From NCBI GenBank assembly GCA_951406725.2, contig OX597820.1:64418001-64482000 (forward strand): 64,000 bases of DNA. Reading direction: 5' to 3'. The DNA is from Octopus vulgaris. Taxonomy: Eukaryota. The notes below the pieces were generated by a model. That model worked only from the letters and a program-made list of their open reading frames with translations. It was not told the DNA's origin and ran no database searches. This document shows, piece by piece, positions 1,728 to 46,497 of the stretch. The position numbers and the translations under genes were made by a program. Position 1 is the first letter of the stretch. Every line of letters starts with the position of its first letter.

Positions 1728-2172
1728 ATATTAATAGTTATCGCCATATTGATATGGCAGTCTATAAATATAAGACTAAAGCTGTCGCTGATTAGCTCCA
1801 AGAGGCCATCGCCTCTCGCTAGCTATATGACACACGAACCTGCATCCATTACAACCTTCGAACAGGGGAGGTCAGTAGCGACACCTGCTGGTTCTGACTA
1901 CGCTGCATTGATAAAGGGCAACATCCCTGAAACATGTCTGCAGATGTCTGACTAGTAAGGTGAAGCGGCTGACCTCCCCTGTTCGAAGGTTGTAATGGAC
2001 GCAGGTTCGTGTGTCATATAGCTAGCTAGAGGCGATGGCCTCTTGGAGCTAATCAGCGACAGCTTTAGTCTTATATTTATAGACTGCCATATTAGTGTGG
2101 CGATAACTATTAATATCCAGTAACGCTATCGTAATCTCCTTTAGAGAGACTTAGTAATTTTAATATTTCTAT
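1728..2172 (+). mobile_element. Inverted-repeat element (Penelope pLTR-like) carrying a hammerhead motif, next to (TA)n
   Basis: 148-bp arms 1728-1875 and 1969-2116 with about 5 mismatches, 93-bp spacer, about 55-bp unpaired 3' extension, then TA-rich sequence. Confidence 0.75.
1903..1943 (+). ncRNA. Minimal type I hammerhead ribozyme, U3-A8 core variant
   Basis: CTGCA-TTGATAA-AGGG caacat CCCT-GAAAC AT GTC-TGCAG: stem I 5 bp, stem II 4 bp, palindromic ACATGT stem III, GUC triplet. Confidence 0.7.
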
Positions 2173-4779
2173 CATATATATATTGATACACACATATACA
2201 TTCATACATATATATGCGTGTATATTTTGAACATACACGCATATGCAGTTCTTTTTTATTTGAAATCTTGCTCGTTTGAATCATCTCCTAACATCATATG
2301 ATCAGTAAGAAATGCCGCCTAACCTAGCAAAAGAGGGCATACTTATATACGTATGCGTGCATATAAATATATATGTGTGTGCGCGCGCACATGTGTGTGT
2401 GTGAGTTAATGTATGTAGGCATGCGTATACTTATGAATGTTTCTGTGAATATGTATATTCGTGTAGTGTGTTTGTGTTTGAGAGAAAGTGACACACAGAG
2501 AGACAGACCAACAGACAGAGGGACAGAACTGATGACAGCAAGAATATGTTGCGTAATTATACCTACAGGCGTGACATGAACCGGAAACTTGAGAATAGTT
2601 ACTGCCCTTCAATATGTCAAAAGTTGAAGAATATTACAACGAAGAAAATATCGATTGGTTGGTATGATCTTGAGTCTCTTGGTCGTACACTTTTCATATT
2701 TCACAAAAGAAATCAAAAATTATAACGAAAAGAACAAAAAACTCAAGTGGTTCCAACGCTAATAGGTGAGAGGTTATCTATATAAATAAAACTACATGTA
2801 TTTCTATTAGGATATGGCCTCATGTGATAAACTATGTGGTTGACTGCCGTGGTGTTGGCGATGGTGATAGTCGTGGTGGTGGTGGTGGTGGTGTCAGTGT
2901 GGAGTTTGGCTGACGTAAAAATGTCCAACAGGTCATGATAAATGGCTAACAGGTCCCAATGTAACCTCGCAATTCAAATCGATATAGAATATTATGGGAA
3001 GCTAACACTGCTTCAGTGGAAATGTTTAACCTGAAAATAAATAAATAAAATAAAATAAAATAAAACTAAACCTCAATAAATTAATGAATAAATAAATAAA
3101 GTGGTATATTATTTCAGCGCGCTGACAGACGTCAGGATTATCAAGGGTGACTGCAATGGATTGTAAGTACAAAAATTATGTAACTTTTAGTAGATGTGCT
3201 TTTTTTTTTAAAGGATTTGAAAGACAAGGAAAGGCGACAGGAATGGAGATTCTACAGGATCTGTATGACCGGAAGAAGTTACAGACGAATATGTTGGTAA
3301 CGTTAAACAATTGTCTTCGCCTTATTGTTTGCAACGACGCACACACACACATACACACACACGCACACATACATATACATACACACTCACCCGATATCTA
3401 GGACGGCGTTCAGAAATGGCCGCTCCACTGGTCCGCAGAATATCGCTCACAGCCCCGCTGTGAATCTCGAGCGTGCAATCAGCGTACTATACTATCGCTA
3501 CTATAATGACGCCTGTCTCTCGGCGCTGATTGCACTTGTATCATGTTGTTAAAGTTTTCCTGCAGCCTTCAGTTATATCACCCTACATAATTCTGTGTCC
3601 AACCCACGCCCCGTACTAACCACTACACTTAATTGTTCCTTATCAAAATATTGGTCATGCAGACGCCCTTCAGCTCCTGTCTTCCCCTTAGTTGTCTTGC
3701 AACGATTCAAAAGAACCCTTTATGGCCGGAATATCTCAGATTTCGGAAAGCTTATAGAAACCTGAGGTACTATATTTCCATCATACACAGTGAATATAAA
3801 AACTGTATCACATGTTAATGTTATCTATACTTATTTTCTACAGAAATCATAGCCAACACTTATTTTGTTTCGACGTTTTGTAATCGATACGCTTCATGTA
3901 AACAGCGATGAAATCGTGGTAAATTTGCGTATATGCCATATTTCATCTTCGATCTCATTGTGTTTAAATCAAACGTCTCGGATATTAAAGGTCGTAACAA
4001 AATTAGTCCTGGCTATAATTTCTATATAGAATCTGTAGAGACAACCTTAACAAGTGATGTAATAGCACTACGAACACTGTAGAACCCAGTATTGATTTAT
4101 AAAAACGCTTAATATACCTTGTAATATATTATGGTTGCATAACGAAATACAGAGGCCATACAAGTCATTAATAAACGTTGTAGACCCCTCTAATTGCACA
4201 GGATACAGAAAGTGGTATCAATTTGGGTGGCATATTATTTTCGCATACTAATATACTTCAGCGTAAAAGAACAATTCTTTGTTCCACGCACTGAGTGACA
4301 ACACAGGAACCATCATGGATAAGGTTCAATATTTGTAGACCTTGATTGCTGAAAACACTATTCTTTTCAGTTCTTCGTACTACTGATCTTCATGTTATGT
4401 TGTTTATGTTTGGTGATATTTCGATATAAACTCATCTGAAATATCTACTCAGATAGATCTGCAATCGAACACAAATATCCTCACGATTAATGAAAGAAGC
4501 TGTTTCAATGAAAAGCGTTTAAGAGATTGCCTTACCTGCTAGAAATGGCAAACAATCACCCTCAAAACAAAGCCTAAAATGTTTAAAATATAACAAACTC
4601 ACCATATAAAGTGATACAAAATAACTTGGCCCAAAATAAAAGACAAACATGTACGGCCTTGACCATCTTCAGTGGAAAGTTTTCCTTCTCTGGGTCGACT
4701 GCGCTGTTATGCAATTCGTACAATATCGAAAAAAAGGATTAGCATAAACTCTTGTTACTTGTTCACTAATAGAATAGAA

Positions 4780-5250
4780 TCTAGATTATGCCTGGCACTG
4801 TAATCTGGTTTTTCAACGTTCTCTGCTTTCATACGACTTCAAAGTTAAATCTTCGTAGAATGGCCATCTCCAATGCTTGTAGATATTTGACAGATAATCT
4901 CCGGGGAGACTATGCTGTGATCTTCTTCATTGTGTTCAGGTATGATGAATAAACAGCTTGTTATATAAAGCTTCTCTCGTCAGTATTCCGACTCCAATAT
5001 CTTTGCAATTTCCGATAAAGTTGTGTACGTCTTTGTGAAGTCTGTATGGATGTTGCGAATAGTCGTGCTGATAGAAGACTAAGAAATAATAGCATGTCTT
5101 ATTGAACAACTACATTGGATGGAGTGCCTTGACTGCCGATGGAACGCTGACTACTTTCTTTCTAATTGAGTTTTACTTAGTTTGTAACAAAACTACAGTA
5201 CGTTGTTAACGATTGAGATACGAATTATAGTGATCGAAAGAGAGGAAATA
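4780..5250 (-). mobile_element. Possible heavily decayed CR1-group LINE RT fragment
   Basis: Minus-strand pieces IRNIHTDFTKTY and RKLQRY..GVG resemble VIHLDFAKAF..KLRGLGIG of the LINE at 19.7 kb; many stops. Confidence 0.3.
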
Positions 5251-44119: not shown

Positions 44120-44618
44120 TCTATATATATAAAACTGTAGTTGTGTGAGTGTCTGTCCCCTTCGATTTAGATTCCTAACTACTCCCACATTTTGCGGTGC
44201 AGTTCAACCAAATTCGGGTATCTTATAGTCGTGATTCATATCGAGTCCGTCCGAGTATTAGCGCGCGACTACGATGAGTCTACGATTTTAAAAATAATTT
44301 AACATCATTTTTTATTCCATTTTAATGCATAATTTTTCGTGTGTCGATGGCGGCGGAGTTGGCGTCCATGGTCACACCTGCACCTGTTTGCTTCTCCCTC
44401 GTGAAGCTGTGGGGAAGGGAGTGTAAGGAAATCAACGTCGTAAAGCGTTGTCAAGGAGACCAGCGTTCTTTTAGAACAACGACTTCATTGCTTGAAGACA
44501 CCAAAACAGAAATGGCTAAGAAAACCCGAATTGGCATCTATAAGGGAAGTAACTCTCTAAAAATGCTTATATAGTTATTTCCCTTACAAACCCGATCAAC
44601 GCCGAGTGATACTGTAAG
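44120..44618 (+). mobile_element. Second non-autonomous Helitron, same 3' end but different body
   Basis: A|TCTATATATATAAAA start; last about 70 bp (TAACTCTCTAAAAATGCTT..CCCTTACAAACCCGA.CAACGCCG.G.GATACTG) shared with the first element. Confidence 0.75.
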
Positions 44619-46446
44619 TACATATATACATTTGTGTGTGTGTGTGTGTGTGTGTGTTTGTGTAATAGAAACAGTTTTTAAAGAAGTATAACAATCAATA
44701 TTGACTCATAATAATCATTTTTATACTTCTTATTTGTACCTCAAATAATTTATTTGTAAATATATCTTTGTTTTTTCATTTTTAAAAAACCATTACTTTT
44801 ATACCTAGTGTGTATTTTCTTTGTTTCTTTTTTCTTTTCACCTATGTATGTGTATATATATATTATGGCCGTTCCTTAATTTTGCTATATAAATATATAT
44901 ATATGTGTATATATATATATATATACATATACATACAAACAAACACACACACAAACATATATATATATATATTATTATTATTATATGTAGAAAAATAAAA
45001 ATACAAACTGGGACAAGAACGTAAAAACACTTAGAAGACGATACAAAAAACACGGACGGGACAATCGAAGCCTTCAATCTTCAGTCAAGAACCGGATCAT
45101 CGTAGCAATTTCGGCTGATTAATCATGCATATGTGGGCAAACGACGTCACGAAACGTGTACCACAAAAAATACGAAGTACGAGTACATGTGATATGAACT
45201 ATTTTTTCGAACAACGAAAGACACAAATGGAAAACAAGACAAACAACACAAAGAACAACCCGTCCTCAGTTGGTGGCTGTTTTTTCTACTTTCGTATTTC
45301 GAAACGATCCCACTATTAATGACATAAATTTTTATATCACTTTTATATCTCTTAGGCATACTTTTAAATGTCTGAATAGGAAATTTAATATTCTCACAAT
45401 ATTAGTCTTATATTGAAATATTAAATGAAGCTAACCTTGCAAGATAAATAAAACGACTTACGTAAATCACGTAGACCAATAATCTAATGGCGTGGAAACA
45501 TTGGACCACTATACAGACGACATCATATAAATAATGCTAATTATTATATGTAAATGCATTATATGCTTCACATAGATAATAGGTCTCACATTTGATTTCA
45601 TAAGTTATTTGAAAGCAATTGTAGTCGGTATCATATAACATAGAAATACAAAGCGATTCACATAAGAAGTCACGGAATAATATACAGATTATTAGAGATT
45701 TGTAATATCAGTTTTCTTTCATGTTCTGTGTAAGTAGTTCGCAGTAAATTTGGTTTAATATGCGGTGTAATAATAGTCATGGTCGTAGTAATGTTAGATA
45801 CTGGTGTAAACAGCTGGTTTTAAATGTAAATAATGTCTATACAGGTGCAGGCGTAACTAAGTTGTGAGAAGTGTGTGTCCTCACCACATATATGTGTGTA
45901 TCCAATTATATATATATATATATACAGTTCGTACTTCTGCTTGGTTTGCAATGAAATAAATATTTAACAAAATATAAAAAAAGAAATGACAACACGAAGA
46001 ATACTGAACATTTGAATGATCAACTGTTTGACCAAAGTATTTAACATATCAGTTCGGAAAACTAGTAAAAAACATCTGATCAATAAATTTGTTAACGGAG
46101 TAACCAACCCATTAACTAAGAATAGCAATAAAGGAACGAACCAGTGCGTGTGTTTACTATTACCGGCATAATGTCCCTCCCAACATCTAATAGTATATAT
46201 ATATATATATATATATATATATATATATATATATATATACTCATATATATATGCATGTATATATATATATATATATATATACATGTATACATGTATATGC
46301 AATACAGAGATGTACATACATACATAGCAAGTGACCTGATCTAAGATCGTGTGCTGGAACGAAAACAACTGCAGCGTGGAAGATGCTTATAAGCCATTTA
46401 AGAAACTCACGAAAACCGTTAGATTCACTTCAACTTTTAAATTCAA

Positions 46447-46497
46447 TTTGCCAAAATATTTTCGTCTCTTTGCGACCGCGACCTGATCCCTGACAAA
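46447..46497 (-). ncRNA. Degenerate hammerhead-like motif, G3-C8 variant
   Basis: Minus: TTTGTCA-GGGATCA-G-GTCGC..GAGAC-GAAA ATAT TT-TGGCAAA. Confidence 0.45.

What the first reader, a model, noticed from the sequence alone, without database searches (positions are those of the whole stretch)
1903..46497. Compensatory 3-8 core pair changes (U3-A8 three times, G3-C8 once)
Seen: where CUGANGA is expected, three unrelated motifs read UUGAUAA (1908, 31049) or UUGAAAA (minus, about 22050), and one reads GGGAUCA (minus, about 46490). Known: positions 3 and 8 form a Watson-Crick pair in the active hammerhead, and swapped pairs can retain activity. Inference: these are selected functional variants rather than decay, and standard CUGANGA searches would miss them.
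Basis: partly seen in the sequence, partly recalled or inferred. Interest (0 to 1): 0.75.

Follow-up and report, generated by a model that had tools for sequence, protein, structure and literature searches.

The report
Jumping-gene hammerheads with swapped core pair
The four motifs are ends of four repeated jumping-gene families (three traced to Penelope-like elements) whose hammerhead-shaped RNA replaces the usual C-G core pair, family-wide, with U-A (already known) or G-C (not found in the papers we could search); most likely descend from self-cutting RNAs, but cutting is untested and two of the four copies here are likely broken.

Summary
All four motifs exist at the stated places, and none is a private mutation at positions 3/8. 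Each is a copy of a repeat family with hundreds to thousands of copies. U3-A8 is the family state at 1908, 31049 and 22056(-). G3-C8 is the family state at 46490(-): 96 of the first 100 of 3,452 genome matches. Three families lie downstream of GIY-YIG (Penelope-like) reading frames; the 1908 family is a 362-nt retrozyme-like repeat. The 22056 and 46490 families are relatives (proteins 49% identical), so 'unrelated' is wrong and the U-A/G-C difference is a natural swap between related elements. U3-A8 is published for Penelope hammerheads. G3-C8 is a known laboratory rescue; I found no natural report, but three key papers were unreadable. 'Functional' is overstated. The 46490 copy has U4G and a broken stem II. 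The 31049 family has fixed A13C and mostly a broken stem I. Most copies were made from uncut RNA. Cleavage is untested. This scan noted the same G3-C8/U3-A8 families before, in this genome and in others.

The parts
1903..1943 (+). Family F1 type I hammerhead. Stem I CUGCA/UGCAG, core U3UGAUA8A, stem II AGGG/CCCU, GAAA, palindrome ACAUGU, C17. A further 3-bp stem beyond an internal loop (GAC/GUC).
   Evidence: U3-A8 in 31 of 31 copies with an intact first box
1728..2175 (+). F1 element: piece of a 362-nt tandem unit with an inverted copy of its 3' part at the 5' end (arms 1728-1886 and 1958-2116)
31045..31084 (+). Family F2 degenerate hammerhead. Core U3UGAUA8A, stem II GCAU/AUGC, GCAA (A13C), palindrome ACCGGU, A17; stem I UCUU/AAGA offset by two extra A
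30953..31175 (+). F2 element end (approximate limits): pseudo-LTR piece and tail, with a short inverted tail copy upstream; the family lies about 860 nt downstream of an RT plus GIY-YIG frame in L152
22023..22059 (-). Family F3 minimal hammerhead. Stem I CUA/UAG, core U3UGAAA8A, one unpaired base, stem II GUUGC/GCAAC, GAAA AU UU
   Evidence: same layout as rows of Cervera 2014 Fig. S3
21932..22134 (-). F3 element end: exon start, hammerhead and short tail, with an inverted tail piece upstream
46447..46497 (-). Family F4 minimal hammerhead with G3-C8. Stem I UUUGUCA/UG(G/A)CAAA, unpaired G, stem II GUCGC/GCGAC, GAAA AUAU UU. This copy has U4G and a C-to-A break in stem II
46305..46510 (-). F4 element end (approximate limits): from just after a 3' splice-site-like position to the long tail end
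40323..40361 (+). Comparison, outside the finding: copy of a canonical C3-G8 hammerhead family (C4 in this copy); a related copy has its core at 63314-63320

Best explanation
The four motifs are 3' ends of four retroelement families (three lie downstream of Penelope-like GIY-YIG frames, one is a 362-nt tandem unit likely moved by a Penelope enzyme) in which the hammerhead core pair 3-8 is U-A or G-C throughout the family, likely because the master elements were selected to keep a slow, dimer-dependent self-cutting RNA. Shown: family-wide states, linkage to the frames, two discrete 3' ends 55-60 nt apart, 5' ends piled at a splice-site-like position, inverted 5' copies, kinship of F3 (U-A) and F4 (G-C) with a second compensated pair in stem II. 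Inferred: two RNA copies would pair through the palindrome to form stem III, the swapped pair would hold G12 and the 2'-OH at position 8 in place, and cleavage would fall after H17. Also inferred: cutting is not needed for each insertion, since cDNA starts in the tail and runs through the uncut ribozyme. F1, F3 and intact F4 copies are likely weakly active. F2 (A13C, broken stem I) and the window's F4 copy are likely dead.
For: F4: 3,452 matches with 3, 7 and 8 free, control 0; of the first 100, 96 G3-C8, 2 G3-U8, 1 A3-C8, 1 C3-C8, 0 C3-G8. Of 30 tail-anchored loci, 26 keep the first box: 24 G3-C8, 1 A3-C8, 1 unread. 14 of 16 loci with the GIY-YIG frame have the F4 motif downstream in sense (13 G3-C8, 1 A3-U8). 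F3: 10 of 12 frame-bearing loci have the motif 550-705 nt downstream. F2 follows an RT plus GIY-YIG frame in L152, continuous over 1,377 nt in L039. F3 and F4 frames are 49% identical over 394 aa. On 11 aligned F3/F4 motifs the 3-8 column is paired in 11 of 11 (GC 6, UA 3, CG 1, UG 1) and one stem II pair covaries CG/UA (related and partly hand-picked rows, so not a probability). Census of 254 sequences, 954 kb: 155 hits, 8 families, all Watson-Crick at 3-8 (5 UA, 2 CG, 1 GC); the 5 families I had not searched for are 3 UA and 2 CG; 0 hits in 3 shuffles. In 101 F4 copies, changes shared by more than 15% of copies fall on N7, loop 2, a U-A/U-G wobble, the linker and the tail, none on the conserved core or stem II. 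F1: 20 of 30 loci exceed one unit, with 3' ends mostly near +178 or +237 from the cut site, as a circular or multimeric template would give. The G-C swap rescues activity in vitro (passages of PMC9901934; PMC11167929).
Against: No cleavage data. Copies do not pile up at the cut site: only 4 of 30 tail-anchored F4 loci lack the first box. F2 spread recently (best copies 97-100% identical) with C13 fixed, and 13 of 100 tail-anchored rows share its tail without any hammerhead, so a ribozyme-like fold can be carried without catalysis. Within F4, double changes at 3 and 8 show no clear compensation: A3-U8 9, U3-U8 4, C3-U8 2 among F4-like rows, which fits ordinary transitions. Predicted folds pair G3 with U17, extending stem I into the core. 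In a lizard Penelope element the ribozyme was dispensable for insertion in vitro, and C3G/G8C rescued only partly (PMC11167929). No frame was linked to F1. The anchors overlap the motif and bias it toward conservation.
Confidence: 0.78

Rival explanations
1. The fold is kept for a non-catalytic job (binding the element's protein, splicing of the adjacent intron, translation start), and the 3-8 swaps are relics of ribozymes that no longer cut in any of these families.
For: Most cDNAs come from uncut RNA. F2 expanded with A13C and a broken stem I. The motif sits right after a splice-site-like position in F3 and F4. Cleavage was dispensable in vitro in PMC11167929. Minimal hammerheads cut poorly in PMC4209133.
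Against: The 3-8 pair forms only in the active fold (passage of PMC9901934), yet 8 of 8 families keep it Watson-Crick. The other core bases are unchanged in F1, F3 and F4. More-than-unit F1 copies fit a ligated circle.
Confidence: 0.15
2. Founder effect: each family descends from one master that happened to carry a complementary 3/8 combination, with no selection on the pair.
For: Copies of a family are not independent. F4 gives one event, or two with the single diverged copy L261. U-A is favoured in an AT-rich genome.
Against: Unsought families are 5 of 5 Watson-Crick, and the 40327 family is C3-G8 in 12 of 13 copies. G-C needs two transversions from either C-G or U-A. Stems I and II covary between subfamilies as well.
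Confidence: 0.05
3. The four copies are independently decayed C3-G8 hammerheads or chance look-alikes.
For: The window's F4 copy does carry extra, rare changes (U4G, stem II). One older F3-like copy is C3-G8 (L257).
Against: Family counts; shuffle controls.
Confidence: 0.02

Closest known systems
Minimal type I hammerheads in pseudo-LTRs of metazoan Penelope-like elements (Cervera and De la Pena 2014, PMC4209133; read: parts 1-2 of 4 of the main text, part 2 of 3 and search passages of supplement file 2)
   Same: Short stem I, unpaired base after A9, G10.1-C11.1, palindromic stem III remnant, U-rich 5' flank, mostly solo or inverted copies. U3-A8 is described there (about 1,300 hits in Schistosoma mansoni; Fig. 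S3 rows UUGAUAA and UUGAAAA).
   Different: No G3-C8 row in the part of Fig. S3 that I read. A13C fixed in a young family (F2) is not mentioned in what I read. F1 has a 4-bp stem II closed by A-U and no unpaired base.
Laboratory C3G/G8C double mutant (PMC11167929 passages and part 1 of 4; PMC9901934, PMC8495972 and PMC3884650 passages)
   Same: Same swapped pair. Partial rescue, including in a Penelope hammerhead. The only rescuing double change in the CUGA region in the pairwise scan of PMC9901934.
   Different: Here it is the natural state of thousands of genomic copies. F4 has U17 rather than C17; PMC3884650 notes that G3-C8 does worse with C17 than with G17 (data not shown there).
Animal non-LTR retrozymes (PMC7229834 passages; bioRxiv 10.64898/2026.07.22.740005 passages)
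   Same: F1: 362-nt unit (within 170-400 nt), 41% GC, type I hammerhead, tandem or more-than-unit copies, no frame.
   Different: U3-A8 core. Mostly dispersed copies of 1-1.5 units with Penelope-type double 3' ends and inversions. Circular RNA not shown.
Natural U3-A8 hammerheads (Perreault 2011, PMC3088659 passages)
   Same: U3-A8 covariation seen in nature and described as active in vitro.
   Different: G3-C8 is not named in the passages I saw.

Membership tests
Minimal type I hammerhead (PLE type) | Core boxes N3UGANN8A and GAAA, U16.1, H17 | tested here: met
   F1, F3 and the F4 family state meet it; F2 and the window's F4 copy do not (next rows)
Minimal type I hammerhead (PLE type) | A13 and an intact stem I in family F2 | tested here: not met
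   C13 in 71 of 71 complete copies; perfect stem I in 7 of 71 (my count). F2 is filed as a degenerate derivative, not a member
Minimal type I hammerhead (PLE type) | U4 and intact stem II in the window's 46490 copy | tested here: not met
   G4 and a C-to-A break in stem II; the family has U4 in 94 of 101 copies
Minimal type I hammerhead (PLE type) | Watson-Crick pair between positions 3 and 8 | tested here: met
Minimal type I hammerhead (PLE type) | Stems I and II with covariation; palindromic stem III remnant | tested here: met
   stem I of F3 is only 3 bp, as in several published rows
Minimal type I hammerhead (PLE type) | Self-cleavage after H17 as a dimer | not testable with these tools
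   no assay; the public runs laid were contigs only
Penelope-like element, C-terminal endonuclease | RT followed by GIY-YIG frame upstream of the pseudo-LTR | tested here: met
   F2: RVT_1 (E 1e-5, below cut-off) and GIY-YIG (above cut-off) in L152. F4: GIY-YIG above cut-off in L268. F3: GIY-YIG below cut-off in L272. YVDD motifs read directly in F3 and F4, with no Pfam RT hit; linkage
Penelope-like element, C-terminal endonuclease | 5' truncation, inverted 5' copies, optional 3' tail | tested here: met
   tails are 55-60 nt, longer than the 30-40 bp in PMC8557442
Penelope-like element, C-terminal endonuclease | Intron in the pseudo-LTR | tested here: inconclusive
   branch-point-like and pyrimidine-rich sequence ending in CAG 22 nt before G3 in F4, with 5' ends piled there; no spliced read was shown
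Penelope-like element, C-terminal endonuclease | Clade (Penelope/Poseidon, Neptune, Nematis) | not tested
   no reference proteins or tree used
Penelope-like element, C-terminal endonuclease | Own frame for family F1 | tested here: inconclusive
   neighbouring GIY-YIG-like fragments in L151 and L154 differ from each other (30% identical) and are not continuous with F1
Non-LTR retrozyme (F1) | 170-400 nt non-coding unit with type I hammerhead, tandem or more than unit length | tested here: met
   362 nt; 20 of 30 loci exceed one unit
Non-LTR retrozyme (F1) | Abundant circular RNA | not tested
   no F1 reads were laid

The most novel reading that the evidence does not exclude
F4 is a natural, catalytically active G3-C8 hammerhead, fixed in a Penelope lineage with thousands of copies and not yet described in print. 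Its relatives record the path of the core pair in one genome (C3-G8, U3-G8, U3-A8 in the F3 lineage; G3-C8 in F4), and non-canonical cores make up about half of this genome's hammerhead families, so CUGANGA-based surveys undercount them badly.
Probability: 0.35. Interest if true: 0.6.

Novelty: new variant of a known kind. Interest (0 to 1): 0.4.

Why it matters
A flipped tertiary pair kept in thousands of copies would be natural evidence that Penelope hammerheads are selected for the active fold, which is still an open point: their role is unknown and cutting was dispensable in vitro. Related families with U-A, G-C, C-G and a likely dead A13C core in one genome give a ready set of constructs to test this. 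For surveys, descriptors should allow any Watson-Crick pair at 3-8. Three quarters of the finding (U3-A8) is already published.

Tried and rejected
Rfam scan: 0 matches. A GIY-YIG frame next to F4 in L185 looked like its partner, but 0 of 11 other loci of that frame carried F4 within the first stretch, and 1 of 8 extended loci had a distant copy; rejected as a chance neighbour. The true partner was found through the intron anchor. Search for compensated double changes inside F4 (57 matches, control 9): no clear signal, and the G8 rows were not fetched. Pile-up of 5' ends at the cut site: not seen. One search used a stem II placed one column off; it is replaced. One search dropped the leading N and excluded the main F3/F4 classes; 12 rows were picked by hand from it, so L254, L257 and L261 are post hoc examples, and 5 of the 12 were not hammerheads or were unclear. 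Sequencing runs: no RNA holder listed. Contigs of 4 runs showed no letter at 5% or more differing at 3 or 8, but contigs say nothing on expression or ends. Free-energy folds and cofolds do not model the hammerhead core and were not used as support. Literature: no natural G3-C8 report; nothing on hammerhead A13C. Lunse 2017, Przybilski and Hammann 2007, Hammann 2012, Nelson and Uhlenbeck 2008 and Martick and Scott 2006 were not held, so I saw nothing of them; supplement file 1 of PMC4209133 could not be searched. Any of these may list G3-C8.
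Full report
Setting. The window is 64 kb of a 2.8-Gb, 227-contig genome (G000, contig C7), rich in simple repeats. That it is an animal, possibly a cephalopod, is my inference and was not tested. Rfam finds nothing in it at gathering thresholds.

Observation. All four heptamers are at the stated places. A minimal type I descriptor with positions 3 and 8 free gives 2 hits, 1908 and 22056, against 0.07 per shuffled window. A looser one (any base at 4, A or C at 13) gives 5 hits against 0.6: it adds 31049, a canonical C3-G8 motif at 40327 and one likely chance hit. The 46490 copy fails both because stem II is broken.

Each motif belongs to a family. DNA searches gave 1,839, 989, 465 and 749 candidates. 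F1 (1908): U3-A8 in 31 of 31 copies with an intact first box, 3 more truncated or altered; these were ranked by likeness to the window, but diverged relatives with compensated stems keep U3-A8 too. F2 (31049): of 100 rows anchored on the tail alone, 71 hold the whole motif; 70 are U3-A8 and all 71 have C13 (my count). F3 (22056): U3-A8 in 47 of 53 with an intact first box, most exceptions being loci fetched because they deviated. F4 (46490): 3,452 matches, control 0; 96 of the first 100 are G3-C8 and none is C3-G8; 24 of 26 tail-anchored loci that keep the first box are G3-C8.

What the families are. F2 lies about 860 nt downstream of an RT plus GIY-YIG frame in L152, with an inverted copy at the 5' end. 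F3 lies 550-705 nt downstream of a GIY-YIG frame in 10 of 12 loci. F4 lies downstream of a GIY-YIG frame in 14 of 16 loci, and L268 holds 530 codons with a YVDD motif and GIY-YIG. F3 and F4 have two discrete 3' ends about 55 nt apart. F4 copies pile up at a 5' end just after a sequence like a 3' splice site. These are the marks of Penelope-like elements as described in PMC8557442 (passages) and PMC11167929 (part 1 and passages). F1 is a 362-nt unit; 20 of 30 loci exceed one unit and most end near +178 or +237 from the predicted cut, which fits a retrozyme copied by a Penelope enzyme from a circular or multimeric RNA (inference; PMC7229834 passages). No frame was tied to F1.

The swap is between relatives. 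The F3 and F4 frames are 49% identical over 394 residues, and their motifs sit at the same place with the same layout. On 11 aligned motifs the 3-8 column is paired in all (GC 6, UA 3, CG 1, UG 1), and one stem II pair changes on both sides. These rows are related and three were hand-picked, so this is a description, not a test. Stem I also differs in a compensated way (CUA/UAG against UCA/UGA; read from the sequences). Single older copies show C3-G8 (L257) and U3-G8 (L254) on an F3-like background, and G3-C8 on a diverged background (L261); this hints at a path but rests on one copy each. The better test is the census: 254 sequences, 954 kb, 155 hits, 8 families, every one Watson-Crick at 3-8, and 0 hits in three shuffles. 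The 5 families I had not sought are 3 U-A and 2 C-G; a sixth unsought family (40327) is C3-G8 in 12 of 13 copies.

How it likely works. Shown: the anatomy above. Inferred from PMC4209133: two RNAs pair through the palindrome to make stem III and cut slowly after H17. The 3-8 pair belongs to the active fold, and G-C was the one swap that rescued the CUGA region in a full pairwise scan (PMC9901934 passages); it also partly rescued a Penelope hammerhead (PMC11167929). In 101 F4 copies, changes shared by more than 15% of copies avoid the core and stem II, as selection on master elements would leave, though my anchors bias this.

Against function. Most copies hold the whole ribozyme and bases upstream of it, so they were copied from uncut RNA; only 4 of 30 tail-anchored F4 loci lack the first box. 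F2 has C13 throughout and a perfect stem I in 7 of 71 copies, yet its best copies are 97-100% identical; 13 of 100 rows share its tail with no hammerhead. A relative with a similar tail keeps GAAA and U3-A8 (L010), so F2 likely inherited U3-A8 and then decayed. The window's F4 copy has U4G and a broken stem II. Double changes within F4 show no clear compensation. No cleavage or expression data were available.

Known and new. U3-A8 is published as natural (PMC3088659 passages) and for Penelope hammerheads, with the same heptamers UUGAUAA and UUGAAAA (PMC4209133). G3-C8 appears in my searches only as a laboratory mutant. I could not read Lunse 2017, whose title concerns numerous Penelope hammerhead variants, nor Hammann 2012 or Przybilski 2007, so 'not in print' is unproven. 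This scan's earlier notes report the same G3-C8 and U3-A8 families in this genome and in others; I reached my reading before seeing them, and they are not independent support.

Verdict. Observation confirmed; interpretation partly supported. A new variant of a known kind, resting on the G3-C8 family alone. Interest 0.4.

Noticed in passing
window 17226-20683 (+): Decayed LINE with an AP-endonuclease piece (PF14529, below cut-off) and RT (RVT_1, E 3e-27), broken by frameshifts; the upstream frame holds a CCCH-like motif.
   Followed up: partly
window 40323-40361 and 63314-63340 (+): Canonical C3-G8 minimal hammerhead family; C4 instead of U4 in 6 of 13 copies seen, so U4C is a subfamily state.
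   Followed up: partly
G000 rows, e.g. C1:13166521 (-): 13 of 100 rows share the F2 tail but have a different, pyrimidine-rich upstream sequence with no hammerhead; one further copy has the hammerhead deleted between two A runs.
   Followed up: no
F3 and F4 ends, e.g. window 46305-46510 (-) and L206: The exon start and the region at the short 3' end are complementary in both families (UGCAGC/GCUGCA in F4, AGAGUCA/UGACUCU in F3), a possible long-range pair near the start of reverse transcription.
   Followed up: no
F1, F3, F4 loci: The two 3' ends are 55-60 nt apart in all three families, longer than the 30-40 bp tail given in PMC8557442.
   Followed up: partly
L261:363-413 (-), L262:399-448 (+): Diverged single motifs with G3-C8 and C7; L261 keeps a 3-bp stem I and an F3-like short stem III, so an older G3-C8 lineage may exist.
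   Followed up: partly
window 50025-50414 (+): 129-codon frame that recalls the endonuclease end of a restriction-like non-LTR element (from memory); no Pfam match.
   Followed up: no
L185:2341-2946 (-), L191-L201: Another Penelope-like family (GIY-YIG 49% identical to that of F2) followed by over 1 kb of simple-repeat-like sequence shared between copies; its hammerhead was not located.
   Followed up: partly
window 11143-11307, 11912-12074, 39997-40161, 56086-56245: Dispersed repeat of about 160 nt in at least four copies, 82-84% alike.
   Followed up: no
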